From NCBI RefSeq assembly GCF_000237865.1, contig NC_017457.1, forward strand, positions 60,001 to 92,000: 32,000 nt of DNA, written 5' to 3'. Positions 9,089 through 32,000 of this stretch are shown here, one piece after another. Both the position numbers and the translations under genes were made by a program. The notes below the pieces were generated by a model. The model saw only the letters and a list, made by a program, of their open reading frames with translations. It was not told where the DNA came from and made no database searches. Position 1 is the stretch's first letter, and each line of letters opens with the position of its first letter. The DNA is from Haloquadratum walsbyi C23. GTDB lineage: Archaea > Halobacteriota > Halobacteria > Halobacteriales > Haloferacaceae.

Positions 9089-9089
9089 T

Positions 9090-9362
9090 ATGGGTAGTGT
9101 CATATCTAAAGGCTGGGTCAATCATCTCACTATGAAGTGTTGGGAATGGACTGTAGTAGAGCGGGTAAGTCGGACAGTCAGGATGGAAGAGATCCGCGAA
9201 AACGACTACAATCTGAATATCGATTTATACGTCGATACGACCAAACCAGAGGAAGATATTGACGTACAGGAGGAACTGGCGGAACTACGCGAGTTGCAGG
9301 CAGAACGAGACGAGATTGAAGCGAAGATGACCCAGCATATGGAGGCTCTGAATTATGAGTGA
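9090..9362 (+). pseudogene. remnant of the 3' end of a second hsdM gene
   Basis: The last 71 aa of this 90-aa ORF (WTVVERVSRTVRMEEIRENDYNLNIDLYVDTTKPEEDIDV...MTQHMEALNYE) match the last 71 aa of HsdM (WTTEERVSRTVGMDEIRENDYNLNIALYVDTTEPEEDIDV...MTQHMEALKYE). By my hand count, 58 of 71 residues are identical. It carries no methyltransferase motifs. It ends in the same ATGAGTGA overlap with the following hsdS. Confidence 0.8.
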
Positions 9363-10710
9363 GGACATTACGCTGGATAAGTTCACAGAGGCTACCGCCT
9401 CTCAAGAGCGACAGGAGACACCAATAGGTGAGCTCCCAGTTGACTGGGACGTAGAGTGGTTGAAAGACGCAGTTGGGATTAATCCTGATGGTTTCTCTGA
9501 GGATGACTGGTCATCAGAGACATTTGAGTATATCTCGCTCTCAGAGGCATCTAATGGCGAAATAGAAAACAGTAAGACAATTCCTATCACGGACGCTCCA
9601 AGTCGGGCACAAAGAACAGTTCAGCAGGGTGATGTACTTGTGGGGACTGTCCGTCCAAAACAGAAAAGCCACGGGTTTGTCAGTGAGGAACACGCTGGGA
9701 AAATCTGTTCTTCTGGCTTTGGTGTCTTGCGAACTGAAACCCATTTTAACTCCCGCTATCTTCTTCAAGAAATCCTCTCAAACCGATTTTTTTCCCAGAT
9801 GGAGGCATATGTTGCAGGTTCAGGCTACCCTGCTGTCAAAATCAGTGACCTGAAGAAGCATCGAATTTCCATCCCACCTCTTGTGGAACAGAGGAAAATC
9901 GCAACCGTCCTCCACACCATCGACCAAGCGATTCAGAAGACCGAGGAAATTATCCAGGGGCTCCAAACGGCTCGTAAAGGACTTACTCAACAGTTATTGC
10001 GTTCTGGTTTTGAGGACGAAGCCAATTTAGTAAGCACCCGTTCTGGTCCTATCTCATTTGAGATCCCTTCTCATTGGAATGTTGTGACGATTGATAATAT
10101 TACTGACAATATATATCGGTATCCAACCTATCAAAATATTGATTACGTAGATGAAGGTGTTCCAGAGGTGAGAATTGGTATGTTAGACGGGGAGGGTTAT
10201 ATCGAACGAGGTGATGAAAAGTACATCTCTGAATCAACCTCAGAAGAATATCCCCGTACACAACTTGAACACGGTGATACGGTGATGGCTGTAAGGGGCG
10301 CTACGTTAGGAAAGACCGCCTCTGTTCCAGAGTGGTTAGATGGGGGCAATATTAATCCGAACCTAATTCGTATTTGCTCAAATGATGAGGTCTTAGATAG
10401 GTATCTCACGGAACTTTTCCTGAGTGGTCTGGTTCAAAGGCAAATAGAAGCTTTCTCTCAGCAAACAACGGTGAAAACAATCAAATCTGGAGACATTCGT
10501 AGAATTGCCGCCCCTATTCCGCCTGTAACTGAGCAAGAAAGAATAATGGATATACTATCTTCGTTTTCATCTCGTATTCAAAACGACGATTCGTATCTTT
10601 CCCGTCTCCAGCGTCTCAAGAGCGGTCTAATGCAAGACCTTCTCTCAGGTAAAGTCCGAACAACTAATACTAACATAGAAATTCCAGAAGAAGTCATCAC
10701 ATATGGTTAG
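9355..10710 (+). CDS. hsdS: type I R-M specificity subunit (second, different target-recognition domains)
   Basis: 451 aa. The conserved spacer helices are shared with the first HsdS (PPLVEQRKIATVLHTIDQAIQKTEEIIQG; RLQRLKSGLMQDLLSGKVRT), but both variable regions are unrelated to it. The stop overlaps the hsdR start. Confidence 0.9.
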   Translation: MSEDITLDKFTEATASQERQETPIGELPVDWDVEWLKDAVGINPDGFSEDDWSSETFEYISLSEASNGEIENSKTIPITDAPSRAQRTVQQGDVLVGTVRPKQKSHGFVSEEHAGKICSSGFGVLRTETHFNSRYLLQEILSNRFFSQMEAYVAGSGYPAVKISDLKKHRISIPPLVEQRKIATVLHTIDQAIQKTEEIIQGLQTARKGLTQQLLRSGFEDEANLVSTRSGPISFEIPSHWNVVTIDNITDNIYRYPTYQNIDYVDEGVPEVRIGMLDGEGYIERGDEKYISESTSEEYPRTQLEHGDTVMAVRGATLGKTASVPEWLDGGNINPNLIRICSNDEVLDRYLTELFLSGLVQRQIEAFSQQTTVKTIKSGDIRRIAAPIPPVTEQERIMDILSSFSSRIQNDDSYLSRLQRLKSGLMQDLLSGKVRTTNTNIEIPEEVITYG

Positions 10711-13675
10711 TATCCCATCCGAGCAGGGCGTTGAACGCTCGTATCTCTCGTGGCTTGACGGGTTAGGATGGGAAGTCCACGGACAAGATGGAAGTCGAGG
10801 AGCGAATGTCCTTGATGTAGAGTACGAACGTCGAAGCAATGAGGTTATTTACTGGAATTTACTGGCTGAACAGCTCATCGTGATCAATGACTCCCTCACA
10901 GAGGATAATGTCGAGAAGTTCGTTTCCTCGCTCAGACGTGATCTTGACGCTGAGAACTTGATGGACGGGAATGAAGCGTTCTATGAGTTACTGACCAAGG
11001 GAAAGACATTCTCAGTCAAGCAGAATGGGAGTGCCAGCAGGACGGTCTATATTGACCTGATTGACTACGAGAACCCAGAGAACAATCGCTTCCACGCTGT
11101 TAATCAGTTCTCTGTCTCCCGTGAAACGACGATCCGTCCCGACGTGAACCTCCTTGTCAACGGGATTCCGCTGGTGACGATGGAACTCAAGAGTGTCGCA
11201 CAGGACAACGACTGGCACAACGCTGTGAGCGACCTCCAAGCGTACGAAGATGATGTACCTCGACTGTTCGTCCCGACGCTATTCAACGTCGCCGCCGATA
11301 CGATGGAGTTCCGATACGGGGCAGTCGGAGCGTCCAAGGAGTTCTATGAGCCGTGGAATGATGCTCCCGAGCAGTACACAGATGACGGCGACGCAAAGCA
11401 GGCGATACAGGCACTCTGTAACCCGCAGACGATTCTCGATATTCTCAAGAACTTCGTGTTTTACGAGCGACGAGCAGGTGGGAATGCCAAAATTATTCCA
11501 CGGCATATGCAGTACTACGCTGTCAATCGGATGCTGGAGCGGGTTGACCGAGACGAACACGACCGAGGGCTCATCTGGCACACCCAAGGATCGGGCAAGT
11601 CATTCACGATGCTGTATGCGGCAGAGAATCTACTAGAGCGGGCTGTTGCTCGTAACCCGCAGGTGTTCATCATCGTCGATACGGACAAGCTGAATAGTCA
11701 AATGCGAGACCAACTGGCGAATCTCTCGCTGGGAGCGTGGACGGAAGCAGAGAGCATCGACCATCTACAGGAACTTATCGAACAGGGTCAGAGCGAGCTC
11801 ATTCTTACGACCATCCAGAAGTTCCAAGATGTTGACCCAGACAGTCAGGGGAACGACGAAGTCATCGTGATGTCCGATGAGGCTCACCGATTTATGGAAG
11901 CTGACCTTGGGAGTCGATTGGATGCCGCACTGCCAAGCTGCACTCACTTCGGCTTTACTGGTACGCCTGTCCGTGAGGGTGAACAGCACAAAGACCGCAA
12001 CACCTTCCGTGAGTTTTCACCAGAGGGCGAAGATTATATCCACCGCTATTCGGTCAAACAGGGGATTGACGACGAGCTGATTCTCCCTGTGTACTTCACG
12101 CTCCGCCACGAGATGGAGTGGCAGATTGATGAGTCGGGGCTTGATGAAGAGTTTGAACGGCAGTTCCGCGGACTGAGTTCGGATGAGAAGCGGGAACTCA
12201 TCCGTGACAACGTAACTGCGAGGATGTTGGCGGAGATTGAGCCACGAGTACAGAAAGCGGTTGAAGAAATCGACCAGCATTATGAGGAGTCTGTTTCTCC
12301 GAACAACTGGAAGGGAATGGTTGTCACCCCAAGCCGTCGGTCGGCAGCGATGTACGGTGAACGGCTCGTAGAACGGCGAGGTAAAGACGAGGTCGAGGTT
12401 CTATACACCTCGAACAAGGACGACCCAGACCTCATCCAGCAGTTCCATACGGACTCTGAGGAACGTGATTCGATAGTTAACGAGTTCAAAGACGAGGACA
12501 ATCCAAAACTATTGATTGTCCACAATATGCTTCTGACGGGATTTGACGCTCCGATTCTGAAGACGATCTATCTTGACCGTAACCTGAAGAATCATAATCT
12601 GATGCAGGCAATCGCTCGAACGAACCGCCCTGCAAGTGGGAAGGAAAATGGTGAGATTGTCGATTTCCAAGGCGTCTTTGAGAATATCGACGAGGCTCTC
12701 GATTACGATACGGAGACGCAGTCGTACGCCGCTCGTGACAAAGATGAGCTGTTTGACGACCTCGTTGACCAGTTGGAAACGGTGATAGATATTTTCGAGG
12801 GGATTCCGAAAACAGACACGCAGGAAGCCACATCGGACGCAGTTGAGCAAGTGCTGACACACCCGACTCGCCGTGAGTTCAAGCAGGGATTCCGTCGGCT
12901 TCAAGATCTGTATGAGGCGGTCGCACCTGACAGTCGACTCGTCGAGAAGGACATCGAGAGGCGGTACAAGTGGCTGAGTCGGATTCACGTTGCGTTCAGG
13001 CGGACAACTAGCGGTGAAGATGACCCTGAAGAAGATATGCGAGAGAAGACCCGAGAGATAGTCAGTGAAAACGTCGCAATTGACACTGTGAAACGAGACT
13101 TTCCAACGTACAAACTCGGTGAGGACGTCTTAGAAGAAGTGGATGAGATAGATAATCCGTCTGTGAAAGCCTCCCAAATCGCCCACGCAACCCAGGAGCA
13201 TCTCAACCCACGAGAAAACCAGAATCCTCGATATAAGCGACTTAGCGAGCGGGTGACTGATGTTGTTGAGCGATGGCAAGGTGGCGATATAGCCGACCCT
13301 GACGCAGTTGAGGCGTTACAATCAGTCGAAGAGGAGATTCTGGAGGTTGAGGAAGAAGCTGAAGAGCAGGGAATGACCGATAGTGAGTTTGCTATCTACA
13401 CGCACCTTACCGAGGAAACGCCAGAAGCAATTGAGTCAGACGAGCAGGCAGAAGCCGTCGCTAACGAGATTATTGAGCAGTTCTACGACCGTGTTGATCA
13501 CGGGTTTGCTGGGTGGCAAACGAACCAGCAGACGATTGCTGAGATTGAACGCATCTTACTGGACGTGCTTGTGGTGGAGTATGATCTTGGAGACCTGATC
13601 GATGATGAGTTTGTGGACACGGTTCGAGAGTATCTGATACAGAACCACGAAGCGACAGTTGACCACTATGAGTGA
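10703..13675 (+). CDS. hsdR: type I R-M restriction/translocase subunit
   Basis: 990 aa with an N-terminal PD-(D/E)xK nuclease (RPDVNLLVNGIPLVTMELKS), Walker A (HTQGSGKSFTM), a DEAH box (VMSDEAHR) and helicase motif VI (QAIARTNR). Confidence 0.95.
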   Translation: MVSIPSEQGVERSYLSWLDGLGWEVHGQDGSRGANVLDVEYERRSNEVIYWNLLAEQLIVINDSLTEDNVEKFVSSLRRDLDAENLMDGNEAFYELLTKGKTFSVKQNGSASRTVYIDLIDYENPENNRFHAVNQFSVSRETTIRPDVNLLVNGIPLVTMELKSVAQDNDWHNAVSDLQAYEDDVPRLFVPTLFNVAADTMEFRYGAVGASKEFYEPWNDAPEQYTDDGDAKQAIQALCNPQTILDILKNFVFYERRAGGNAKIIPRHMQYYAVNRMLERVDRDEHDRGLIWHTQGSGKSFTMLYAAENLLERAVARNPQVFIIVDTDKLNSQMRDQLANLSLGAWTEAESIDHLQELIEQGQSELILTTIQKFQDVDPDSQGNDEVIVMSDEAHRFMEADLGSRLDAALPSCTHFGFTGTPVREGEQHKDRNTFREFSPEGEDYIHRYSVKQGIDDELILPVYFTLRHEMEWQIDESGLDEEFERQFRGLSSDEKRELIRDNVTARMLAEIEPRVQKAVEEIDQHYEESVSPNNWKGMVVTPSRRSAAMYGERLVERRGKDEVEVLYTSNKDDPDLIQQFHTDSEERDSIVNEFKDEDNPKLLIVHNMLLTGFDAPILKTIYLDRNLKNHNLMQAIARTNRPASGKENGEIVDFQGVFENIDEALDYDTETQSYAARDKDELFDDLVDQLETVIDIFEGIPKTDTQEATSDAVEQVLTHPTRREFKQGFRRLQDLYEAVAPDSRLVEKDIERRYKWLSRIHVAFRRTTSGEDDPEEDMREKTREIVSENVAIDTVKRDFPTYKLGEDVLEEVDEIDNPSVKASQIAHATQEHLNPRENQNPRYKRLSERVTDVVERWQGGDIADPDAVEALQSVEEEILEVEEEAEEQGMTDSEFAIYTHLTEETPEAIESDEQAEAVANEIIEQFYDRVDHGFAGWQTNQQTIAEIERILLDVLVVEYDLGDLIDDEFVDTVREYLIQNHEATVDHYE

Positions 13676-14390
13676 GGTACGATTACACGAGCTAGAATTG
13701 CTGGGTGAGAGCGTCGAGTACGAACTACGGCGGAGTGCAGAGGCGTCAGAGCCACGGATTGACGTCGATATTCACGGGGTGAGGGTAGTCGTCCCAGAGA
13801 CTGCTGATTTTCAGCCAACAGAGCTACTGAAACAGAATGCATCGTGGGTGCTGGAGAAACAGCGAGTGTATCAGAAGTATCGTGAGGAAGCCCCTGAGCG
13901 GACGTTTGAGGCTGGCGAGAGATTTCCGTTCCTCGGAGAAGAACACAAGTTGGTGGTTGAATCTCGGCAGTCTCACGCTGTGTCAGACCGGACGATTCAT
14001 CTGCGAGAGAGCGCTGTCGCACAGTCGTCACTCAAACAAGCACTACGGAATTTCTACCGAAGTCGGGCACGCAAACACTTCGTTGATCGTGCCGACCAGT
14101 ATGCTTCTCAGATGGGTGTTGAGTATAAGCAGATTGAGATTCGGAATCAGCGGACAAGGTGGGGGAGTTGTTCAACGTCAGGAACACTCGGACTCAACTG
14201 GCGGTTGATGATGGCTTCGCCTAACGTTATCGACTACATCCTTGTCCACGAGTTAGCACATCTCCGTGAGCCGAATCACACGCAAGCGTTCTGGGATTTT
14301 GTCGCAGAGTACGATCCTGACTACGTGGAACACGCCGAATGGCTTGAGGAAAACAGTACGCAACTCATCTTTTCTCAAGCCGACCTATGA
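13668..14390 (+). CDS. DUF45/YgjP-like zinc metallopeptidase (HExxH)
   Basis: RNQRTRWGSCSTSGTLGLNWRLMMASPNVIDYILVHELAHLREPNHTQAFWDFV is the DUF45 signature with an HELAH zinc motif. The track starts at a TTG (13659). I prefer ATG 13668, which forms an ATGAGTGA overlap with the hsdR stop. Confidence 0.85.
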   Translation: MSEVRLHELELLGESVEYELRRSAEASEPRIDVDIHGVRVVVPETADFQPTELLKQNASWVLEKQRVYQKYREEAPERTFEAGERFPFLGEEHKLVVESRQSHAVSDRTIHLRESAVAQSSLKQALRNFYRSRARKHFVDRADQYASQMGVEYKQIEIRNQRTRWGSCSTSGTLGLNWRLMMASPNVIDYILVHELAHLREPNHTQAFWDFVAEYDPDYVEHAEWLEENSTQLIFSQADL

Positions 14391-14939
14391 AACTGCAAGT
14401 TGCTCTATTTCCGCCGTTATATCCTTGATAGACGACGAGATCTGGTTGAGGTCAGTAAGCCCAGTGCAGACAACCTTCCCGCTGGCGAAAATCAGGAGGA
14501 CAGCATCTTGACCACGGTAAATTAGAGCAGGAAATTGCTCGGGTTCGTACTCGGCTTGCTCCAGTCCGAGTCCGATAGCAATTGCTTCTAACGACAGAGT
14601 CGAATCAACTTCTGCTGTTGCGACGATGTTCTTGATTTCGGCAGTAGGTTCGTATTCAAAGTTCAGTAACTCACGCATCAGCGTATTCACCCGCCTGACC
14701 ACCTCCTCGAAATGTGCTGGTGATGTCGCTCCCACAATCGAGCATTTGCCACTTCGGTAAAACGGCACGTAGGTGTCATCGGGGGCAAAGCGAGCTTGCA
14801 ACCAGTGGTTTTCAGATGGTTCGTAGGTGACAGAATTGACTTCGGATCGTTGTTCAAAGGTCTCAGCCAACGCCGATAACTCAAGCTCCTGCTGGTAGGT
14901 CAACATCCCAACGACGTTCGCAATCTCAAACTCTGCCAC
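14385..14939 (-). CDS. tbp: TATA-box binding protein paralogue (intact, two repeats)
   Basis: 184 aa. Repeat 1 reads FEIANVVGML...YRSGKCSIVGATS. Repeat 2 reads IKNIVATAEVDSTLSLEAIAIGLGLEQAEYEPEQFPALIYRGQDAVLLIFASGKVVCTG. It is convergent with the DUF45 gene, with a 6-nt 3' overlap. Confidence 0.9.
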   Translation of the reverse strand: MAEFEIANVVGMLTYQQELELSALAETFEQRSEVNSVTYEPSENHWLQARFAPDDTYVPFYRSGKCSIVGATSPAHFEEVVRRVNTLMRELLNFEYEPTAEIKNIVATAEVDSTLSLEAIAIGLGLEQAEYEPEQFPALIYRGQDAVLLIFASGKVVCTGLTDLNQISSSIKDITAEIEQLAVS

Positions 14940-15122
14940 TATAGAGTATTTCCCAGGTGAGAGTAAAAAGCCACGAGTTCCGAGCGGACTACTCTGTGAC
15001 TGATTGGAGTCTCACCAGTGCTGTTCTCTACGCTAAGTATTATATTGACTCTGCCAGAATAACTACAAGATTACTCAAGCACAGATTATCTTGGATGCCG
15101 ATCCGCACTCTGTTTTCCCTGC

Positions 15123-16199
15123 TCAAATATCATCATTTTCTCTGATAGAGATTTCGACACCACAGGCTTCTGCCATCCGCCCCAGTTCACGTTGTTTCTG
15201 ATCCCAGCTTAAGTTGACTTCAAGATAGTATTCCTGTTCTAGTTCACGTGCTTGCTTCATCTCCTTGTCGTTGTATGTTGGTTCGTCATTGACGATAGCA
15301 CGATTCTTCGCAGGGATGTATGGGAGTGGCTCAATCGCAGAGATAAGGTCGTGATTTTGGATGAGGTAGTTCACTATCGACGCCATCAGGTCGCTCTGGA
15401 CAGAATCTGTAAAGGTCTCAGCGACATCACCACTCTGAGAGATTTCGCCAGAATATGGCTGTGTTATCCTGTCCTCAGAGTCAGTTGATGAATCTTCATT
15501 ATCCAATCGACGTGGAGTGTCCGTATCAATCTCGGACTCGATATCGTTGACGAGCCTGTCAATCATCTCTTTCGCTTGCGTTTGTGCTTCCGATTCGATA
15601 GCGTCAGAAACGGTGTCAGTGAGCAAATCCACAACCGCTGTGGCTAATTCTTCTTTGTCATCTGTCAGCGTATCCCGAGATTTTCGTAACTTCCTGATGT
15701 GTTCGATAATCGCTATTGATTCTTCATTGTGTATCGTGCTAACTTGATACGCCTCAATGATACCCTTCTTGTCTGGAAGTTTCCGAAGTGTCGTCCGTTC
15801 AACCGCCTCGACTTTGAATTGTGAATCACTGTCACCGAGATATCGGTAGTAGAACTCATACTCCTGTCCGTTGGTGAGAATACCCAATCTGACATTCTCA
15901 CTCTGGAGATATGCACTCAGTTGCTCTCGATGCTTGGAGGTGAGCGTTTTACCCAGTCCCTTTGCTTCGAGAAATGCCACGGGTTGTCCGCCGAGTATAA
16001 GAGCATAATCGACTTTGAATGTTTTACTGAATGCCTTCACCGAGTACTCTAGTTCGGTGTTAGCTGGGATCTCCCAGCCAAGAAGTTCGATGAAATCGTT
16101 TAGTATAGACGCTTTCGTAGTTGCTTCCTGCATCTGCGGTGAATCCTCGATGATGGGTTGAGCAGACTCAACGTAGTCCCGAATCGATGCTGTGTCCAT
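15123..16199 (-). CDS. orphan HsdR_N/Mrr-like PD-(D/E)xK domain protein with acidic coiled middle and unknown C-terminal domain
   Basis: ILNDFIELLGWEIPANTELEYSV...FKVDYALILGGQPVAFLEAKGLGKTL...REQLSAYLQSENVRLGILTNGQEYEFYY matches the N-terminal nuclease-like domain of type I HsdR (D...EAK core, then the TNG..Y.F strand). It has no helicase motifs. The track starts at 16271; I prefer the internal ATG at 16199 (MDTASIRDY). Confidence 0.7.
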   Translation of the reverse strand: MDTASIRDYVESAQPIIEDSPQMQEATTKASILNDFIELLGWEIPANTELEYSVKAFSKTFKVDYALILGGQPVAFLEAKGLGKTLTSKHREQLSAYLQSENVRLGILTNGQEYEFYYRYLGDSDSQFKVEAVERTTLRKLPDKKGIIEAYQVSTIHNEESIAIIEHIRKLRKSRDTLTDDKEELATAVVDLLTDTVSDAIESEAQTQAKEMIDRLVNDIESEIDTDTPRRLDNEDSSTDSEDRITQPYSGEISQSGDVAETFTDSVQSDLMASIVNYLIQNHDLISAIEPLPYIPAKNRAIVNDEPTYNDKEMKQARELEQEYYLEVNLSWDQKQRELGRMAEACGVEISIRENDDI

Positions 16200-16501
16200 T
16201 CTTACAAGTGATCTTCTCTCGTGTGATTCAAAGAAATGTGGGCAAAGACTCAGTAACCCTCCATTCGTCATTGGTCTCCTTGTCTGTAGTTACTCGTACT
16301 GACGCTCTTACTTCGTCTACGTGGGCGGTAGCTCACTCGCAGAACCTGTTTATTTCGCCCTGAGGTGATGTCAGTTCAGGGCGGAGGACTAGTTACCAAT
16401 GGGCTTCCACGGTGGTGGTATCACTTCGGTGATTCTTAAAATGATGATAAATATCGTCGACTCTTCTTGTAGATGAAAAAATCCTAATACAGACAAGAAT
16501 T

Positions 16502-24891: not shown

Positions 24892-26097
24892 TTAGTCTGC
24901 GTGTTGACCGATTATTTGTCCCACTCGACTTTCGGATTCAAGCACGTCGGCGATGATATCCTCATCAGCATTGAATTCGTATTTATAATAGCTCCCACCG
25001 TTCGATCCTTTATTCACCTCCATCAGATTGATGAATCCCTTCAGCGATAGCTGATTCAGACGCCGGTGTAATGTCCGTGTCGATACGGTATCACGTCCGA
25101 TCTGCTGTGCGATTGTCTTGTACTGGTCGTGGATCACTTTTCGTCTGACTGGTGTTCGTCCTTGTCGTGCCAGCGACAGTACTGTGTAGAGCACGACGTG
25201 ACTTTGTGTTGGTAACGCTTCGAGTTCGTCTTTAACGACGCCACTCTGGACTTGGTGGTATGCCTTTGTGACATGAGAGTCTGTAATCGTCGAATCATTG
25301 TTGTCTCGTGCGATGAAACCCGCATTCGAGAGGATATTGATCGCTTCACGAGCGCTTCCGGTGCGCTGTGCGACTTTTGCAGCTGTCAATGGGATTACTT
25401 CTTCGGACAGTGCGCCGTCCAAGAACGCTTCATCAGCACGTTGTGAGAGGATTTCCTGTAACTGATCAGCATCATACGGCTTGAAGTGGATCTCGTGTTC
25501 ACACAGCGTTGATTGGACACGGGCTGACAGTTCATCACGGAACTTGAAATTATTCGAAATGCCGATCAGTCCGATTTTTGTCTCGGTAATGTTCCCGTTC
25601 GTATGTGCACGTGGGATTTGATACAACAGTTCATCATCAGATCTGAAACTATCAATTTCATCAAGCACGAACAGGACATGTGTGGCGTCGGTATCCTCAA
25701 TATGTTCCCACAGTTTTCGATGTACTGTGGAACGGGGATAGCCTGTCGTGTGAATCTCCTGATTTCGGTCACGAAAATGATTCACGAGGTGACACGCAAC
25801 TTGATAACTCGTTGCATCTTTACAGTTCTGCCAGACAACCTCGACGGAGACGTTGTCGAATTCAACCTGGTCCTCGAGCAACTCATCAAGTATCATTTCT
25901 GTTGCGAGTGTTTTCCCAACGCCGGTATCACCGTAGACGAAGATGTTTCGGGGACTGGCTCCATTAGCCACGCTCTGAAGCACTTCCACGTATGTAGACA
26001 TCTCATCTTCTCGAGCAATGAGTGTGTCAGGCGTATATCCATCAGTAAGGACCTCCTCGTTATCGAACACGGCGTCAGTCTGTGTGAACCGTCCCAT
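24892..26097 (-). CDS. orc1: Orc1/Cdc6 replication initiator
   Basis: 401 aa with an AAA+ Walker A (VYGDTGVGKT), Walker B (VLFVLDEID) and a C-terminal winged helix (TRTLHRRLNQLSLKGFINLMEVNKG). It is adjacent to an origin-like inverted-repeat structure. Confidence 0.93.
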   Translation of the reverse strand: MGRFTQTDAVFDNEEVLTDGYTPDTLIAREDEMSTYVEVLQSVANGASPRNIFVYGDTGVGKTLATEMILDELLEDQVEFDNVSVEVVWQNCKDATSYQVACHLVNHFRDRNQEIHTTGYPRSTVHRKLWEHIEDTDATHVLFVLDEIDSFRSDDELLYQIPRAHTNGNITETKIGLIGISNNFKFRDELSARVQSTLCEHEIHFKPYDADQLQEILSQRADEAFLDGALSEEVIPLTAAKVAQRTGSAREAINILSNAGFIARDNNDSTITDSHVTKAYHQVQSGVVKDELEALPTQSHVVLYTVLSLARQGRTPVRRKVIHDQYKTIAQQIGRDTVSTRTLHRRLNQLSLKGFINLMEVNKGSNGGSYYKYEFNADEDIIADVLESESRVGQIIGQHAD

Positions 26098-26119
26098 ACT
26101 AGCCGTCTCTGACCCTACC

Positions 26120-26127
26120 TATAAATA
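26120..26127 (-). promoter_or_regulatory. TATA box of orc1
   Basis: The minus strand reads TATTTATA 23-30 nt upstream of the orc1 ATG (26097). This spacing is typical for leaderless archaeal transcripts. Confidence 0.5.
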
Positions 26128-26143
26128 ACCACTGTGTGAACTG

Positions 26144-26209
26144 TGTCAAGTGAGTCAAGTGTGTCAAGTGAGTCGTTGATTTATATAACACACACACACC
26201 GTTTTTCAC
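26144..26209 (+). repeat. origin inverted repeat, left arm, containing tandem GTCAAGTG(A/T) units, a (CA)6 run and CCGTTTTTCAC
   Basis: TGTCAAGTGAGTCAAGTGTGTCAAGTGAGTCGTTGATTTATATAACACACACACACCGTTTTTCAC. Its reverse-complement partner lies at 26501-26557. Confidence 0.85.
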
Positions 26210-26500
26210 GGACGTATGTCTTGAGAGAGTGGGTGGCTGTTGGGACGCCGTGATCGGAGCCGTATCCGTGCATGTGTGGGAGGCAGTGGTTGTAGGGGTT
26301 GGCGGGAAGGAGGCGTGTTCACGACACGCCTCATGTTGTTTGTTCGCTCAATTTACTCAGTACGGTTATTATTGTATTTATTATTATATAAAGTTTTTGT
26401 CATATATATTTTACATAATTATATCAATATGTTATTGAGATGATAATACCACCACTGACAGCGACTAACATCTGACCCCACTGTTTCAGCGAGAGTCTCA

Positions 26501-26557
26501 CTGAGAAACGGTGTGTGTGTGGTATATAAATGAACCACTCACTTGACACACTTGACA
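26501..26557 (-). repeat. origin inverted repeat, right arm
   Basis: The reverse complement reads TGTCAAGTGTGTCAAGTGAGTGGTTCATTTATATACCACACACACACCGTTTCTCAG. It matches the left arm apart from a few substitutions and one fewer GTCAAGTG unit. Confidence 0.85.
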
Positions 26558-26662
26558 GAATAAGATACGAATGACACACGTGACAAAATGTGTCTATAGC
26601 TAGTCATGATGTAACGTGATTTTCTCCGTATGCAACTTGATACCACCGTGTAAATCGGACAC

Positions 26663-26866
26663 TCAGTGAAGTTGAGCAGTCATCTGTTGAATTCCGTAAT
26701 ACAAAACTGGACCCAATACAGCACTGAGAATAACTGTTCCAACGAGAGGGAGAATTCCTGTCGGATCGGGACTGAGTGCAATCAAGATGCTGAATCCACT
26801 AACCACGGCAATAAAAATAGATATGCCTACAAGCGCAGTCTGTGCCATATCGGAGCGTACACTCAT
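26663..26866 (-). CDS. small predicted membrane protein
   Basis: It has two hydrophobic helices (ALVGISIFIAVVSGFSILIAL, LPLVGTVILSAVLGPVLYY). The track start is a TTG at 26917; ATG 26866 or 26848 is more likely. Confidence 0.5.
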   Translation of the reverse strand: MSVRSDMAQTALVGISIFIAVVSGFSILIALSPDPTGILPLVGTVILSAVLGPVLYYGIQQMTAQLH

Positions 26867-27244
26867 ATCCCTAATAAAACGGCATTTTCTATTTTCCCGC
26901 TGAGAAACTAATACCAATCGAACAATATCGTGTTTGTCACAGATGTCCCACAGTCTCAGAGTCGCTCAGAACACATTTCAGTATAGTAATACACATCATA
27001 TTGCAAGAAATATTAGCATGCATACGCATCAGTATAGTTCGGGGAAAATGTAATTTAGACTATTTAATACGGTGCTGTTTTTACTTCACTTTAGAAATAA
27101 AATCGCTCAGAGCTGTAATATGTATATATCTCATCACTACAGAAGCCTGGGCTGAGTAGCCCGTCAGTAAGTGGGATCAGGAGACTCCTGTGCAAGGCAC
27201 AAGTATCTACAGATTCCATACAATGATATCATAGCCTCCAACGA

Positions 27245-30118
27245 ATGAGTTCACAAACATCTCCAAGTATCCAGCCAGGTGCCGTAGTCAAGAATCGAAA
27301 CCGACTATGGAGAGTTGATTCCGTTGATGGAGACGTTGTCACAGCGACTCCCATAGACGGGAGCACTGCCGACAAGCATCGGTTTTATATTCCGGTCGAG
27401 GATATCAGAGAGGGCAGTCTGAATCCGCCAGATTCTGAGAAACTCGGGAATCCTGAGTTTCAGCGGCTACTAAATCGGTCATATCGGCTTTCGATGCTAC
27501 ACGGGACAGCTCCACTCGTAAGCCTCCAACGGTCACGGGTTATCCCAACCGAGTACCAGCTTACTCCAGTTGTAATGTCTTTGGATATGCCCCGTGTCCG
27601 AATGCTGCTGGCTGACGACGTCGGTCTAGGGAAAACCATTGAAGCAGGCCTCATCACCAGCGAACTGATGGCCCGCAACAAAGCGGATCGTATTCTCATA
27701 ATTACGCCTGCGAATCTCCGAGACCAGTGGCGTGAAGCGTTTACCTACTTCTTCCACATTGATGCGGATATTATCAGCCGCCGCCATCGAAAGGCGATGG
27801 AAAAGGAAATCCCACCAGGAACTAGTCCGTGGGAGCATTTTTCGAAACTCATTGTCAGTATCGACTACGCCAAACAAAATAGCGTTCGACACGAGATTCT
27901 GGATCAAGAGTGGGATCTCGTCATTATTGATGAGGCACACCAAGCGGCGAAACCGCATGAATCCGGGGCAAACGAAACCGTCGATATGCAACGCTGGGAC
28001 TTTGCGACCGATATCACCGACCACGCTGAACACTGTCTCCTCCTGACGGCTACGCCCCACAACGGCTACACGGATTCGTTTGCGAGCTTGATTCGGATGC
28101 TTGACGTCGACGCAGTATCTGGTCCTCGACATGACCCTACCGTTCACCGAGATATCGCCCGAAAGCATGTTGTCCAACGACGGCGGGACGATGTCAAGCG
28201 ATGGTTCTCTGACAGCGACGGTCAAAGTCCCTTCCCAAAGCGAGATCAAGACGAAGTACGGGTTACGCCGACAGCATACGAGGAAGAGACATACGATGCC
28301 GTCCGAGAGTATGGAGAGCTGTTGATGTCCTCCGCACAACGGTCAAGCTCCAAGAGCCAGACGCTGGCTCGTTGGTCAGTCATCCACTTCCTGAAGCGAG
28401 CATTAAGTAGCCCCGAAGCGCTCCGCCGATCGATAAAAAACCGTCAGGAAAAGCTCGAAGGTCGGCTGGATGAACTTGACGAGGAGGATACCCAGACTGT
28501 AATCGAAGAGACAGCAGGAGTCTCCGAGTCGATGGCTCAGGCGAATGCACTTGACGACGATCCTGGTGAAGAGTACAGTGAAGAGGAGGTCGGAGAACGG
28601 GTCGAGCGGGTCGTCACGGGTGATAAAGCCGCTATCGAACAGGAACTGGAGGTTCTCGAAGATGTTGCAGAAAAGGCGGAGCGGGTCACCAAAACCCGTG
28701 ATGCAAAGTTACAGCGGCTTCTCGACGAAACTCTACCCCAGCGGTTCCAATACCCTCGTGTCATCATATTTACAAAGTACGTGGATACGCTGGAGTATCT
28801 CGAAGAGCAGATCAAGGATTCGCAGGGTGATGAGACCGAAGTCTTCACTCTCCACGGGTCTCTAAATGAGGCACAACGGAAGGAGCGGTTCAAAGAGTTT
28901 GAAGAATCTACACGGGGCGTTCTCATCGCCACTGACGTCATCAGCGAAGGGATGAACCTCCAACACGCCGCAAACCAAATTATTCACTACGAGCTGCCGT
29001 GGAACCCGAACAGATTGGAACAGCGGAACGGTCGAATCGACCGATATGGGCAGGAGAACGACGAGGTCGTCATCCGGACGATGGTCGTCGAGGATCAGAT
29101 GGACGTGGCTATTCTCGAAAAACTCGTCCAGAAAGCGAACAACATCAGGCAGGAGTACGGGTTCTCACCACCGTACTTCGGCGACGACGAAGGGATCCTC
29201 GAACTGCTCAAAGACGAGGGAATCGACGCTGGCGTTCCACAGGCAACACTAGAAGAGTTCGGCGGCTCCGCACCAGCGGAGCGTGAGAGTGCGAGTGTCT
29301 TTGACGACCAGACACTTGACCGAATTAAATCCGAATCGTTCTACGGGCATACTGAAGTCGGCCTACAGGAGGTTCAAAAGCGTCAAGAAGAGACCCACCA
29401 GCGAATCGGCGGGCAGGGCACGTTAGAGCAGTTCGTCAAGAGTGGTCTGAACCTGTTCAATTGCTCGTACGAGATGAACGTCCAAGGGCACCTCAACATC
29501 GAGGTTACTGCTGATCGACTTCAATCACCGGACATCAAACGTGAGTACGAGGACGTGACGTTCGATCCCAACGAGGCGTCCCAGTCATCGGATGCGGAGA
29601 TGCTTGACATCGCCCATCCGCTCGTACAACGGCTCATCGAAGCCGTCAAAGAGACAGCGTTGACCGATGAGAACCGCTACGGGCGGACAGCAATACGGGG
29701 AACCGATGAGGTGAGGGAGCCGACAGCAGTGTATACAGCACTGGTTCGATACGTGGCAGACACCCAGCCCGATCCGACGATTATGGAGGAGTTGGTACAG
29801 GTCGGGTTGCCAATCTACGGGGACAAGCCACTTGAGCAAGATACCGTTGAGGCTTTAGAGGAGAGTGAAGCCAAACCGGTTCAGCGCACATCGATGGAGA
29901 AGGAAGACGAACTCAGAGCGGCACTCGGACACGGAGCGTTCGAACAGACGCTACAACGGCGAGCAGAACAGCGGCGGGACAAGATTGTCGAACAGCGGAC
30001 CGAGATGCGAGCGGAGCTTGAGAAATCCGGAAGTGGAAGCTGGCTGTCCGGGATTGATGACGTCGAGATTGCGAGCAAAGATCTGCTGACTGTCACCATC
30101 TATTATGGGAGCAACTAA
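27245..30118 (+). CDS. SNF2-family helicase/translocase
   Basis: 957 aa with motif I (LADDVGLGKTIEAG), motif II DEAH (VIIDEAHQ), motif III (LLLTATPHNG), motif V (VLIATDVISEGMNLQ) and motif VI (LPWNPNRLEQRNGRIDRYGQ). It also has a long C-terminal extension with no motif I can name. Confidence 0.92.
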   Translation: MSSQTSPSIQPGAVVKNRNRLWRVDSVDGDVVTATPIDGSTADKHRFYIPVEDIREGSLNPPDSEKLGNPEFQRLLNRSYRLSMLHGTAPLVSLQRSRVIPTEYQLTPVVMSLDMPRVRMLLADDVGLGKTIEAGLITSELMARNKADRILIITPANLRDQWREAFTYFFHIDADIISRRHRKAMEKEIPPGTSPWEHFSKLIVSIDYAKQNSVRHEILDQEWDLVIIDEAHQAAKPHESGANETVDMQRWDFATDITDHAEHCLLLTATPHNGYTDSFASLIRMLDVDAVSGPRHDPTVHRDIARKHVVQRRRDDVKRWFSDSDGQSPFPKRDQDEVRVTPTAYEEETYDAVREYGELLMSSAQRSSSKSQTLARWSVIHFLKRALSSPEALRRSIKNRQEKLEGRLDELDEEDTQTVIEETAGVSESMAQANALDDDPGEEYSEEEVGERVERVVTGDKAAIEQELEVLEDVAEKAERVTKTRDAKLQRLLDETLPQRFQYPRVIIFTKYVDTLEYLEEQIKDSQGDETEVFTLHGSLNEAQRKERFKEFEESTRGVLIATDVISEGMNLQHAANQIIHYELPWNPNRLEQRNGRIDRYGQENDEVVIRTMVVEDQMDVAILEKLVQKANNIRQEYGFSPPYFGDDEGILELLKDEGIDAGVPQATLEEFGGSAPAERESASVFDDQTLDRIKSESFYGHTEVGLQEVQKRQEETHQRIGGQGTLEQFVKSGLNLFNCSYEMNVQGHLNIEVTADRLQSPDIKREYEDVTFDPNEASQSSDAEMLDIAHPLVQRLIEAVKETALTDENRYGRTAIRGTDEVREPTAVYTALVRYVADTQPDPTIMEELVQVGLPIYGDKPLEQDTVEALEESEAKPVQRTSMEKEDELRAALGHGAFEQTLQRRAEQRRDKIVEQRTEMRAELEKSGSGSWLSGIDDVEIASKDLLTVTIYYGSN

Positions 30119-30120
30119 CG

Positions 30121-32000
30121 ATGAGTATCGATACACCCTCTACCGACGCTGAAATCGAATCGAGTTCCGATACGCCACGAACCGGATCAACGACATTCAT
30201 TAATACGAGCGGCGGTCTCCTCACCGAGGAACTGGTTGGCAAAGTCCGTCAACGTCAGTGCGGAGAGTCTGCCGTCCGACCGGAGACCTTTGCGTTACCG
30301 AACACGGAGCCGCCCGAAGAGGCGGACATCGAAGCAGAGATCGGGAATACGTGGAACACGCTTCGGGAGCGATGGGACGAGCTGACTATGGACGAGACAC
30401 TATTCCATATGGACGTCTCGGACGCTCGCAACAAGTGGATTCTCAAGCTATTCCGAAACCTTGGCTTCGAGCCGGTCTTCCAGCGTGAGAATCTCGAAGC
30501 GGGCGGCATCGAGGCGAACCTCTCTCATAAGGGATGGCCGGACGGCGAGATCGAAAACTATGGTGAACTGGAGGGGCGGACGGCTCCAATCATTCATACC
30601 GTTAAGCCGGAACAGAAGCTGGATCAAAAACCCGAAAATGCTCCTCGTGGAAGAAAAAGTCCACATGACACGCTCCAGGAGTTCCTAAATGCCAGCGACG
30701 AACATGACTGGGCTGTCGTAACAAACGGGCTGACGCTCCGAGTTCTTCGGGATTTCTATCACACGTACACCCGTGGATACGTGGAGTTCGATCTGGAGAA
30801 TATATTTACGACCCGGAATTACGGGGACTTCCGGGGACTCTACCGGCTCTGCCACGCTACACGGTTCATCGATCCGATCGTAGCCGATGAAGAGGAGGAT
30901 GATATTGAGACTCCTCTGGAGCAGCTCTACCAGGTCGCTCTGTCTACTGGGGTCAAGGTTGGTCAAGATCTCCAATCCAACGTCGTAAGCGCCATCGAGA
31001 CGCTGGGGACCGGGCTACTCAACCAGGAGATTCGGGAGTTCCTCAAAGAAGGTGGAGAAGAGGAAGCCAAAGAGTACTATCAGGAGGTCCTTCTCTTGGT
31101 ATATCGCCTGCTTTTCCTGATGTATGCAGAGCAGCGGGGGATGATGGCGTCACGTGATAGCCTGTACACCAACGAGTATAGCATCACGAACCTCCGTAGA
31201 AAAGCCGAAAACCGTCGAAGCGGGAGTGACCGAAATACTGATCTTTGGCACGGCTTACAGTCCACGTTCCGTCTCGTCGAGAAGGGTGACGACGAACTCG
31301 GCGTCCCTTGTTACAATGGAATGCTCTTCGACTCGAACCGGTTTGAATGGGTGTCCGAAGCCGAGTGTTTCAACGATGATCTCTTGGATGCAATTGAGGA
31401 TCTCACCCTCATTGAGCACGAGGGCACTCGCCAACGAATCTCGTACGCCGACCTCGGTGTTGAGGAGATTGGGTCTGTCTACGAGAGTCTGCTCGAGTTT
31501 ACACCGAGGCTTGCATCTGAAGTAATTGAATTGGAAGACAGAACGATTACTCGTGGTAAGTTCTATCTCGACGACCGGGGGACCGAGCGAAAAGAGACCG
31601 GGAGCTACTATACTGATCCGGGATTAGTTCAAGAACTTATTCAGAGCTCGCTGGAACCCGTCGTTGAAGATCGTATGGAAAACGCTGTCACGACTCCGGA
31701 ACAGGAAGAAGCCCTCCTCGACATCTCTGTCTGCGATCCAGCAAGCGGAAGTGGTGCGTTCCTGATCGCCGCCAACAATTTCTTAGCACAGCGACTCGCT
31801 CGCATTCGATCTGACAGTGACTATCCGCCTGGAGACAAGATTCGTGAGGCACGCAGAGATGTCCTCCAGCACTGTATCTATGCAGTCGACCTCAATCCAA
31901 TGGCCGTCGAATTGGCAAAGGTCAGTCTCTGGATAAACTCTGCTGTAGAAGACAAGCCGCTAAACTTTCTTGATCACCGTATCAAACAAGGAAATTCGCT
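30121..32000 (+). CDS. large N6-adenine-type DNA methyltransferase (Eco57I/type IIG/DrmMI-like), 5' part only
   Basis: It is not in the ORF track because it has no stop in the window. My hand translation from ATG 30121 stays open to the window end (626 codons). It includes SYYTDPGLVQELI, SAM motif I (ISVCDPASGSGAFLIAA), YAVDLNPMAVELAKVSLWIN and LDHRIKQGNS, the run that precedes NPPY in large gamma-class adenine methyltransferases. It starts 2 nt after the SNF2 stop. Confidence 0.8.
   Translation, partial: MSIDTPSTDAEIESSSDTPRTGSTTFINTSGGLLTEELVGKVRQRQCGESAVRPETFALPNTEPPEEADIEAEIGNTWNTLRERWDELTMDETLFHMDVSDARNKWILKLFRNLGFEPVFQRENLEAGGIEANLSHKGWPDGEIENYGELEGRTAPIIHTVKPEQKLDQKPENAPRGRKSPHDTLQEFLNASDEHDWAVVTNGLTLRVLRDFYHTYTRGYVEFDLENIFTTRNYGDFRGLYRLCHATRFIDPIVADEEEDDIETPLEQLYQVALSTGVKVGQDLQSNVVSAIETLGTGLLNQEIREFLKEGGEEEAKEYYQEVLLLVYRLLFLMYAEQRGMMASRDSLYTNEYSITNLRRKAENRRSGSDRNTDLWHGLQSTFRLVEKGDDELGVPCYNGMLFDSNRFEWVSEAECFNDDLLDAIEDLTLIEHEGTRQRISYADLGVEEIGSVYESLLEFTPRLASEVIELEDRTITRGKFYLDDRGTERKETGSYYTDPGLVQELIQSSLEPVVEDRMENAVTTPEQEEALLDISVCDPASGSGAFLIAANNFLAQRLARIRSDSDYPPGDKIREARRDVLQHCIYAVDLNPMAVELAKVSLWINSAVEDKPLNFLDHRIKQGNS

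What the first reader, a model, noticed from the sequence alone, without database searches (positions are those of the whole stretch)
27245..32000. SNF2 helicase immediately followed (2-nt gap) by a very large adenine-methyltransferase: class 1 DISARM-like or novel helicase-coupled type IIG system, cut by the window edge
Seen in sequence: a 957-aa SNF2 ATPase with all core motifs is followed by an ORF that is still open after 626 codons. That ORF has only just reached SAM motif I (CDPASGSGAFL), the DLNPMAVELAKVSLW helix and LDHRIKQGNS. The full protein is therefore likely well over 1000 aa, with a ~550-aa N-terminal region I cannot assign.

Established knowledge: class 1 DISARM combines an SNF2-like helicase (DrmD) and an N6-adenine methylase (DrmMI) with DrmA and DrmB (DUF1998) and optionally a PLD nuclease. 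Type IIG, type ISP and BREX PglX enzymes share the same methylase core.

Inference: the pair is the 5' end of a DISARM-like operon or of an uncharacterised helicase-plus-methylase defence system. Which one depends on genes beyond 32000.
Basis: partly seen in the sequence, partly recalled or inferred. Interest (0 to 1): 0.62.

Follow-up and report, generated by a model that had tools for sequence, protein, structure and literature searches.

The report
ARMADA type I defence operon start
The helicase and the giant methylase are the first two genes of an ARMADA type I antiviral system on a Haloquadratum walsbyi plasmid, a three-gene kind of system named in 2025, so this is a further archaeal member and not a new system.

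Summary
A 957-aa SNF2 ATPase (27245-30118) is followed after 2 nt by an adenine-methylase ORF still open at 32000.

The window comes from Haloquadratum walsbyi C23 plasmid PL100. All 21 related genome loci, and 24 of 26 informative archaeal-order metagenome contigs, carry the same pair plus a third gene. That gene is a ~1700-1770-aa YprA/DruE-like DEAD-box helicase with a DUF1998 zinc domain and a Vsr-like C-terminus.

Bell et al. 2025 (PMC12458937) named this triad ARMADA type I. They note that many archaea have the order armA-armB-armC, and two of my related contigs are in their table.

The third gene also exists intact on PL100: CCC41959.1, 1768 aa, three accession numbers after the SNF2 protein.

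The system is DISARM-related but not DISARM: there is no split DrmA/DrmB and no PLD nuclease. It is not an autonomous type IIG enzyme either. The methylase N-terminus has a nuclease-like fold but no conserved catalytic triad.

Verdict: new member of a known kind, moderate-to-low interest.

Side observation: diverse TBP paralogs recur between armB and armC in about half of the haloarchaeal loci.

The parts
27245..30118 (+). armA: BrxHII/RapA-like Swi2/Snf2 ATPase, 957 aa (GenBank CCC41956.1 / WP_014554942.1)
   Evidence: Pfam SNF2-rel_dom, ResIII, Helicase_C and a weak RapA_C hit. PADLOC DrmD 1.5e-133 and BrxHII 4.5e-93. Best solved structure is RapA, 3e-34. NCBIfam DrmD scores 470 bits, below its 610-bit cut-off. 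Core motifs found. Exact-sequence identification.
30121..32000 (+). armB, 5' part: first 626 codons of a ~1350-aa PglX/MmeI-like N6-adenine methyltransferase, cut by the window edge
   Evidence: Pfam MmeI_Mtase, N6_Mtase, Eco57I and MmeI_hel. PADLOC DrmMI 4.9e-80, then type IIG models. A profile search of solved structures hits CamA, MmeI and PglX/BrxX. The AlphaFold model (pLDDT 81) matches MmeI, DrdV, BpuSI and BrxX/PglX.
30409..30870 (+). ArmB residues ~97-250: PD-(D/E)xK nuclease-like domain without a conserved catalytic triad, predicted inactive
   Evidence: The domain model has pLDDT 88. Its best Foldseek matches are the DrdV nuclease domain (probability 0.95, E 0.02), then HsdR and BpuSI. 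Conserved residues are S135, H136, H159, Q186, N190, R207, R210 and D224, with no D...(D/E)xK.
30913..31500 (+). ArmB residues ~265-460: helical spacer domain
   Evidence: Pfam MmeI_hel at residues 325-403, E 4.5e-4. The model shows long helices at 265-388.
31573..32000 (+). ArmB residues ~485-626: start of the gamma-class adenine methyltransferase domain (TGSYYT, SAM motif CDPASGSGAF). The NPPW catalytic motif and the variable target-recognition half lie beyond 32000.
   Evidence: Motif positions. NPPW is at residue 807 in the L001 homologue. The C-terminal half is variable among homologues.

Best explanation
The two ORFs are armA and the 5' half of armB of an ARMADA type I antiviral system on plasmid PL100 of Haloquadratum walsbyi C23. 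The third gene, armC, lies just beyond the window. ArmA is a RapA-like Swi2/Snf2 ATPase. ArmB is a PglX/MmeI-like N6-adenine methyltransferase. ArmC is a 1768-aa YprA/DruE-like DEAD-box helicase with zinc modules, a DUF1998 domain and a C-terminal Vsr-like nuclease.

Proposed mechanism (inferred). ArmB reads a short DNA motif through its rapidly varying C-terminal half and methylates the host's own copies. Its own N-terminal nuclease-like domain is probably inactive. Unmethylated motifs on incoming viral or plasmid DNA license the two motors. ArmA translocates on double-stranded DNA. ArmC loads on single-stranded replication intermediates and cuts with its Vsr-like domain. Virus replication stops without killing the cell.

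What is shown here: the domain content, the conserved triad and the intact armC on PL100. What is shown elsewhere, and only for E. coli ARMADA type II: every gene, the ATPase motifs and the NPPW motif are required, and defence is non-abortive. Methylation-based self/non-self discrimination and the ArmC nuclease as effector are inferences.
For: Triad conservation: SNF2 + methylase + a ~1700-1770-aa helicase occur in 21 of 21 genome loci, from haloarchaea to Bacteroidota and Chloroflexota. In metagenome contigs with the archaeal gene order, 24 of 26 that extend far enough have the third gene. One exception carries an IS66-like insertion.

Third gene: Pfam DEAD + Helicase_C + MZB/DUF1998; PADLOC DruE 1e-129 against DrmA 1e-14.

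Source: the window's proteins are exact matches to H. walsbyi C23 proteins on a 100,258-bp contig, which is PL100 (PMC3119063).

armC on PL100: CCC41959.1, 1768 aa, on the same 100,258-bp contig, 91% identical to the L001 ArmC, PADLOC DruE 4e-124. Its accession is three after ArmA (CCC41956.1).

Literature: Bell et al. define ARMADA as a YprA-like helicase + a BrxHII/RapA-like helicase + a PglX-like methylase, with the order reversed in many archaea. Their Table S1 lists the contigs of my L005 and L008, and H. walsbyi DSM 16790 HQ_3274A, as ARMADA type I helicases.

Components: ArmA's best solved structure is RapA. The ArmB fold matches MmeI, DrdV and BrxX.

ArmC C-terminus: conserved motif E..PD..Q..PDF..F(V/C)DG..H..D..KR, with sub-threshold DUF559 and MTES_1575 hits.

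ArmB variability: the C-terminal half is hypervariable while ArmA and ArmC are 94-98% identical. The same pattern is reported for E. coli armB.

Function: genetics of E. coli ARMADA type II.
Against: The DNA beyond 32000 could not be read, so adjacency of armC and integrity of the armB 3' half on PL100 rest on accession order and on relatives. No ARMADA type I system, and no archaeal one, has been tested experimentally. Host methylation by ArmB has not been reported even for type II. The Vsr-like assignment of the ArmC C-terminus is sub-threshold with my tools. PL100 is not in the readable part of Bell et al.'s Table S1. ArmA scores highest against DISARM DrmD models, so the boundary with DISARM is one of operon architecture, not of this protein alone.
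Confidence: 0.87

Rival explanations
1. It is a class 1 DISARM system (DrmD + DrmMI + DrmA + DrmB, with or without DrmC).
For: The top PADLOC hits are DrmD (1.5e-133) and DrmMI (4.9e-80). The top NCBIfam hit for the SNF2 protein is DISARM_DrmD.
Against: The DrmD score of 470 bits is below the curated 610-bit cut-off. In all relatives, and on PL100, the helicase and DUF1998 are fused in one ~1770-aa protein. That protein matches DruE models at 1e-124 to 1e-129 and DrmA models only at 1e-14. No PLD (DrmC) gene and no separate DrmB is conserved nearby.
Confidence: 0.04
2. It is an autonomous type IIG/IIL restriction-modification enzyme with a coincidental SNF2 neighbour.
For: The fold and Pfam domains are those of MmeI/DrdV/BpuSI-type enzymes, including a nuclease-like N-terminal domain. 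PADLOC type IIG models also hit.
Against: The SNF2-methylase pair is conserved, mostly directly adjacent (0-40 nt), together with the YprA helicase in 21 of 21 loci across phyla. No D...(D/E)xK triad is conserved in the N-terminal domain. In E. coli ARMADA type II all genes are needed for defence.
Confidence: 0.04
3. It is part of another helicase/methylase system that shares these components: BREX type 3 (BrxHII + PglXI), Hma, Dpd or haloarchaeal BRIGADE.
For: The SNF2 protein also hits BrxHII (4.5e-93), HmaA (1.3e-92) and DpdE (3.3e-82). BRIGADE occurs only in haloarchaea.
Against: No PglZ/BrxC, no HmaC-like ATPase, no 7-deazaguanine genes and no second YprA helicase appear among conserved neighbours in 21 loci or in the window. 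ArmB is far below all NCBIfam PglX cut-offs. The relatives' contigs are listed as ARMADA type I.
Confidence: 0.03

Closest known systems
ARMADA type I (Bell et al. 2025, bioRxiv / PMC12458937)
   Same: Same three components: a RapA/BrxHII-like SNF2 ATPase, a PglX-like adenine methylase, and a YprA-like helicase with DUF1998 and a Vsr-like C-terminus. Same archaeal gene order armA-armB-armC. Close relatives (L005, L008) and the sister strain H. walsbyi DSM 16790 are listed in their table.
   Different: This copy is on an unstable 100-kb plasmid next to a predicted replication origin. Many haloarchaeal relatives have a TBP paralog inserted between armB and armC, which the paper does not describe for ARMADA.
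ARMADA type II (E. coli NCTC 12900 and EDL933 armABCD)
   Same: ArmA, ArmB and ArmC are homologous, and armB is the variable gene. It is the only experimentally validated relative: non-abortive defence in which all genes and the ATPase and NPPW motifs are needed.
   Different: Type II has a fourth gene, ArmD (RelE fused to a GajB-like helicase), and extra inactive nuclease domains on ArmC. It is absent from archaea.
DISARM class 1 (DrmD, DrmMI, DrmA, DrmB, DrmC)
   Same: The SNF2 helicase and the adenine methylase are homologous and give the best PADLOC hits.
   Different: In DISARM the YprA-type helicase is split into DrmA + DrmB and is accompanied by a PLD nuclease. Here it is one DruE-like protein with a Vsr-like end. 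ArmA falls below the NCBIfam DrmD cut-off.
Druantia (DruE)
   Same: ArmC is closest to DruE models. DruE of Druantia type III is reported to be a helicase-nuclease acting on ssDNA replication intermediates (abstract of PMC13192584).
   Different: There are no DruH, DruA-D or DruM/F/G partners. The partners here are the SNF2 ATPase and the methylase.
BREX PglX/BrxX and type IIL MmeI
   Same: ArmB shares the helical spacer + gamma-class methyltransferase + variable recognition architecture, and these are among its top structural matches.
   Different: There are no PglZ/BrxC partners. Unlike MmeI, the N-terminal nuclease-like domain lacks the catalytic triad.

Membership tests
ARMADA type I | BrxHII/RapA-like Swi2/Snf2 helicase (ArmA) | tested here: met
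   PADLOC BrxHII 4.5e-93 and DrmD 1.5e-133. Best solved structure is RapA, 3e-34. Weak Pfam RapA_C hit. All ATPase motifs are intact.
ARMADA type I | PglX-like N6-adenine methyltransferase (ArmB) next to ArmA | tested here: met
   2-nt gap. Pfam MmeI_Mtase, Eco57I and N6_Mtase. Profile hits to CamA, MmeI and PglX. Fold matches to MmeI, DrdV and BrxX. Only the first 626 codons are visible; NPPW lies beyond the window.
ARMADA type I | YprA-like helicase (ArmC) of the ARMADA clade in the same operon | tested here: met
   It is not in the window. An intact 1768-aa ArmC (CCC41959.1) is on the same 100,258-bp plasmid and is 91% identical to the L001 ArmC. Adjacency is inferred from accession order (CCC41956 to CCC41959), from 21 of 21 genome loci and from 24 of 26 metagenome loci. 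The contigs of L005 and L008 are listed as ARMADA type I helicases.
ARMADA type I | C-terminal Vsr-type PD-(D/E)xK nuclease on ArmC | tested here: inconclusive
   Recurrent sub-threshold DUF559 (E about 0.05) and MTES_1575 (1.6e-4) hits. Invariant residues E, D, Q, D, D, H and D in the last ~100 aa. The best solved-structure hit for the C-terminal profile is 3R3P, 'Mobile intron protein', E 0.21; that it is a Vsr-like homing endonuclease is my recollection, not a tool result.
ARMADA type I | No ArmD (RelE-GajB-like helicase), which marks type II | tested here: met
   No fourth gene is conserved in the 21 relatives. The gene after armC is an HNH protein in L001, L002 and L004. This cannot be tested for PL100 itself.
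ARMADA type I | Confers protection against viruses | not testable with these tools
   Only type II has been tested, in E. coli.
DISARM class 1 | DrmD equivalog | tested here: not met
   NCBIfam NF038317 scores 470 bits against a curated cut-off of 610. The protein is homologous but outside the curated family.
DISARM class 1 | Separate DrmA helicase and DrmB (DUF1998) genes | tested here: not met
   A single fused protein in all relatives and on PL100. DruE models score 1e-124 to 1e-129, DrmA models 1e-14.
DISARM class 1 | PLD nuclease DrmC (optional) | tested here: not met
   No PLD gene was seen among the neighbouring genes scanned (HNH in L001, a PD-(D/E)xK protein in L005) or among conserved neighbours of the 21 loci.
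Type IIG/IIL restriction-modification enzyme | Active N-terminal PD-(D/E)xK nuclease in the same polypeptide | tested here: not met
   A nuclease-like fold is present, but no conserved acidic/Lys triad was found across 50 homologues.
Type IIG/IIL restriction-modification enzyme | Acts alone, with no obligatory partner genes | tested here: not met
   The SNF2 and YprA partners are conserved in every locus.
BREX type 3 | PglZ phosphatase and BrxC ATPase with BrxHII and PglXI | tested here: not met
   No such conserved neighbours. All NCBIfam PglX models score far below their cut-offs, at most 29 bits against 400-900.
Druantia | DruE together with DruH (type III), DruA-D (type I) or DruM/F/G (type II) | tested here: not met
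   Only the DruE-like helicase is present. Its partners are the SNF2 ATPase and the methylase.

The most novel reading that the evidence does not exclude
Haloarchaeal ARMADA type I forms a distinct sub-variant in which a TATA-binding-protein paralog is a recurrent fourth component. It would serve, for example, as a DNA-binding sensor, as a decoy, or as a dedicated transcription factor for armC. This would link ARMADA to the TBP-containing TOTE and TALON conflict systems. Diverse TBP genes (32-78% identical to the L001 TBP), in either orientation, occupy the armB-armC gap in about half of the loci. On PL100 exactly one unidentified gene (CCC41958.1) lies between armB and armC.
Probability: 0.2. 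Interest if true: 0.55.

Novelty: new member of a known kind. Interest (0 to 1): 0.3.

Why it matters
The result gives an unannotated plasmid locus, labelled only 'helicase-related protein' and 'DEAD/DEAH box helicase', a precise defence-system identity.

It also points to a convenient natural test bed. PL100 is spontaneously lost in culture (PMC3119063). Isogenic plasmid-plus and plasmid-minus H. walsbyi could therefore show whether an ARMADA type I system methylates its host and blocks haloviruses, which has not been shown for any type I or archaeal ARMADA.

The hypervariable recognition half of ArmB beside near-identical ArmA and ArmC suggests specificity swapping like that of type I and BREX systems. 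Otherwise the finding is ordinary.

Tried and rejected
Attempts to read the DNA beyond base 32000 all failed:
- Exact-protein contig look-ups for ArmA, Orc1 and PL100 ArmC found nothing on record.
- Megablast against the plasmid collection found only a 287-bp, 77% match in Natribaculum.
- My guessed accession for PL100 is not in any of the collections.
- An exact 49-mer scan of the metagenomes found nothing.
- No metagenome or genome locus is closer than about 91%.

Searches that gave little:
- A single-sequence search of solved structures with ArmB gave nothing useful; a profile and a structure model were needed.
- The supplementary files of the H. walsbyi genome paper hold no PL100 gene list.
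- A search for a Haloquadratum methylome gave nothing specific.
- TBP cluster look-ups did not reveal the identity of CCC41958.1.

Interpretations considered and rejected: DISARM class 1, autonomous type IIG, BREX type 3, Hma, Dpd/BRIGADE and Druantia. The reasons are given under the rival explanations and the membership test.
Full report
OBSERVATION. The finding is accurate.
- ORF 27245-30118 (+) encodes a 957-aa protein. It has an intact Swi2/Snf2 motor: GLGKT at 127-131, DEAH at 229-232, TATP at 268 and QRNGRIDRYGQ at 593-603. Pfam finds SNF2-rel_dom, ResIII and Helicase_C.
- The stop codon is TAA at 30116-30118. After the two bases CG, an ATG at 30121 opens an ORF that is still open at base 32000, 626 codons later.
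- That ORF contains TGSYYT (residue 493), the SAM motif CDPASGSGAF (538), DLNPMAVELAKVSLW (590) and LDHRIKQGNS (617). It hits Pfam MmeI_Mtase, N6_Mtase, Eco57I and MmeI_hel.

SOURCE.
- Exact-sequence look-up identifies the SNF2 protein as CCC41956.1/WP_014554942.1, the divergent Orc1/Cdc6 (24892-26097, minus strand) as CCC41954.1, and HsdR (10703-13675) as CCC41943.1. All are from Haloquadratum walsbyi C23, on a contig of 100,258 bp.
- That length is the published size of plasmid PL100. PL100 is an unstable, low-copy plasmid with 43.9% G+C, said to carry 'restriction endonucleases, methylases and helicases' (PMC3119063).
- The ARMADA region is richer in G+C (0.48-0.56) than the rest of the window, and both proteins are acidic, as expected for a haloarchaeon. 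This fits acquisition from other haloarchaea, whose copies are about 90-93% identical.
- The window also holds a type I R-M operon (6304-13675), a YgjP peptidase, two N6/N4 methylases and TBP genes. The pair therefore sits in a plasmid-borne defence island.

WHAT THE PAIR BELONGS TO.
- The best PADLOC models are DrmD (1.5e-133) for the helicase and DrmMI (4.9e-80) for the methylase. BrxHII, HmaA, DpdE and type IIG models also score strongly. The two proteins alone therefore do not settle the system.
- I fetched 21 related genome loci and 57 metagenome loci.
- Clustering all ORFs shows exactly three genes conserved across the 21 genome loci: the SNF2 protein, the ~1350-aa methylase, and a 1697-1768-aa protein present in 21 of 21 loci.
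- In haloarchaea and a Dehalococcoidia genome the order is SNF2-methylase-big helicase. In Bacteroidota and others the big helicase comes first.
- Among metagenome contigs with the archaeal order that extend beyond the methylase, 24 of 26 show the third gene. One of the two exceptions has an IS66-like transposase inserted there.
- The third protein has DEAD, Helicase_C and MZB/DUF1998 domains. It matches PADLOC DruE models at 1e-129 but DrmA models only at 1e-14. It has nine CxxC motifs, GTGSGKS and DEIH.
- Its C-terminus is conserved, with the motif E..PD..Q..PDF..F(V/C)DG..H..D..KR..L..GY. It gives recurrent sub-threshold DUF559 and MTES_1575 hits. The best solved-structure hit for the C-terminal profile is weak: 3R3P, 'Mobile intron protein', E 0.21. 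I recall 3R3P as a Vsr-like homing endonuclease, but no tool result confirms that.

LITERATURE.
- Bell et al. 2025 (PMC12458937) describe exactly this triad as ARMADA. It consists of a YprA-like helicase (ArmC, with a C-terminal Vsr-type nuclease), a BrxHII/RapA-like helicase (ArmA) and a PglX-like methyltransferase (ArmB).
- Their Table S1 lists as ARMADA type I helicases the contig of my L005 (Halorubrum sp. 48-1-W, QMIM01000003.1), the contig of my L008 (Saprospiraceae, JANWXM010000003.1) and H. walsbyi DSM 16790 HQ_3274A.

THE MISSING THIRD GENE ON THIS PLASMID.
- The DNA past base 32000 could not be obtained.
- However, the 90%-identity cluster that holds the ArmC proteins of L001, L002, L003 and L006 also holds CCC41959.1/WP_014554944.1. 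This is a 1768-aa 'DEAD/DEAH box helicase [Haloquadratum walsbyi]' of strain C23, on a 100,258-bp contig.
- It is 91% identical to the L001 ArmC and matches DruE models at 4e-124 against DrmA at 4e-14.
- Its accession number is three after ArmA's. This implies armA (CCC41956), armB (CCC41957), one intervening gene (CCC41958) and armC (CCC41959). That arrangement is an inference from numbering and from relatives.

COMPONENT ANATOMY.
- ArmA. Its closest solved structure is RapA (3e-34). Against NCBIfam's DrmD equivalog it scores 470 bits, below the 610-bit cut-off.
- ArmB overall. An AlphaFold model of the 626 residues (pLDDT 81) matches MmeI, DrdV, BpuSI and BrxX/PglX best.
- ArmB N-terminal ~550 aa. 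This region resolves into three parts. First, residues ~97-250 form a nuclease-like alpha/beta domain. The separate domain model has pLDDT 88, and its best matches are the DrdV nuclease domain (probability 0.95, E 0.02), then HsdR and BpuSI. Second, residues ~265-460 form a helical spacer (MmeI_hel). Third, the methyltransferase domain starts at about residue 485.
- ArmB nuclease-like domain. Across 50 homologues it conserves S135, H136, H159, Q186, N190, R207, R210 and D224, but no D...(D/E)xK triad. I predict it is not an active nuclease.
- ArmB C-terminal half. NPPW lies at about residue 807 in homologues, beyond the window. Among haloarchaeal loci whose ArmA and ArmC are 94-98% identical, the ArmB N-terminal 640 aa are 70-93% identical pairwise, whereas residues ~740-1357 drop to 20-50%. 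This is the signature of a swapped target-recognition region. The same has been noted for armB in 426 E. coli genomes.

MECHANISM.
- Shown elsewhere, for E. coli type II only: all genes, the ATPase motifs of ArmA and ArmC, and the ArmB NPPW motif are required, and protection is direct rather than abortive.
- By analogy, DruE of Druantia type III is a helicase-nuclease acting on ssDNA-containing replication intermediates (abstract of PMC13192584). YprA/MrfA helicases translocate on ssDNA under an OB-CON-DUF1998 canopy.
- My best model is inferred. ArmB recognises a short motif, methylates self DNA and detects unmethylated motifs on invaders. ArmA, a dsDNA translocase, and ArmC, an ssDNA helicase with a Vsr-like nuclease, then disable the invader's replication.

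RIVALS.
- Class 1 DISARM fails on the split DrmA/DrmB, the PLD nuclease and the DrmD cut-off.
- An autonomous type IIG enzyme fails on the missing catalytic triad and the invariant partners.
- BREX type 3, Hma, Dpd/BRIGADE and Druantia fail for lack of their signature partners among conserved neighbours.

NOVELTY AND SCORE.
- This is a further member of a kind described in 2025, and the sister strain's chromosomal copy is already listed. It is neither surprising nor new in architecture.
- Its modest value is practical. It is a naturally curable plasmid copy in an archaeon, for a system type never tested experimentally.
- The most novel thing seen lies outside the window. TBP paralogs (Pfam TBP, 1e-21 to 1e-43) occupy the armB-armC gap in about half of the haloarchaeal loci. 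They occur in both orientations and are only 32-78% identical to the L001 TBP. Bell et al. mention TBP only for TALON.
- Interest: 0.3.

Noticed in passing
window 26098-27244: The intergenic region between orc1/cdc6 (24892-26097, minus strand) and armA has 55-nt inverted repeat arms at 26154-26208 and 26502-26556, 93% complementary. The arms contain tandem 9-nt TGTGTCAAG-like units and flank an AT-rich spacer of about 290 bp. This looks like an archaeal origin with ORB elements. It is probably the OriP1 that Dyall-Smith et al. 2011 predicted upstream of Hqrw_5030.
   Followed up: partly
L001 14516-15079; L002/L004 14515-15078; L003 14064-14651 (minus strand); L027, L028, L029, L030, L031, L034, L040, L043, L044, L045 and L071, in the armB-armC gap: A TATA-binding-protein paralog sits between armB and armC in about half of the haloarchaeal ARMADA loci. 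It occurs on either strand and is only 32-78% identical to the L001 TBP, which suggests repeated recruitment. This is not described for ARMADA in Bell et al.. PL100 has one unidentified gene (CCC41958.1) at this position.
   Followed up: partly
window 14385-14939 (minus strand) and 5684-6058 (minus strand): A full TBP paralog (45% identical to the ARMADA-embedded TBP of L001) lies convergent with the end of the type I R-M/YgjP cassette and overlaps it. A TBP fragment lies just upstream of hsdM, so TBP genes bracket the R-M cassette.
   Followed up: no
window 6304-14390: A type I R-M operon has hsdM (6304-7821), two hsdS genes (7814-9088 and 9355-10710) separated by a 90-aa hsdM C-terminal fragment (9090-9362), hsdR (10703-13675) and a YgjP-like metallopeptidase (13659-14390). 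This suggests a duplicated or recombined specificity module. G+C is raised to 0.51-0.54 over about 11000-15000.
   Followed up: no
L001-L006 and L022-L045, ArmB residues ~740-1357: The C-terminal half of ArmB is hypervariable (20-50% pairwise identity), while its N-terminal 640 aa and the flanking ArmA and ArmC are highly conserved. This is consistent with exchange of the recognition domain.
   Followed up: yes
window 15123-16271 (minus strand): A 382-aa ORF has an HSDR_N/MmeI_N-type nuclease domain and no recognisable partner domains. It may be a stand-alone restriction-like nuclease.
   Followed up: no
window 871-2387: Two adjacent N6_N4_Mtase ORFs lie at 871-1608 (weak Pfam match) and 1605-2387 (strong match), followed by a 303-aa ORF with no Pfam match. 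This may be a small type II R-M system or orphan methylases.
   Followed up: no
L009, L011, L012, L016, L019 (between armC and armA); L014, L018, L020 (between armA and armB): Bacteroidota ARMADA loci carry small inserted genes. One is a ~131-aa ORF that I judge Doc/Fic-like from its sequence alone; I did not scan it against any family library. The other is a ~330-aa ORF of unknown function.
   Followed up: no
L002 and L004: Halobacterium yunchengense has two copies of the whole ARMADA locus, with flanks, on two different scaffolds. ORF positions and lengths are the same in both loci.
   Followed up: no
L036 7651-9129 (minus strand): An IS66-like transposase is inserted immediately after armB in one saltern metagenome contig.
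   Followed up: no
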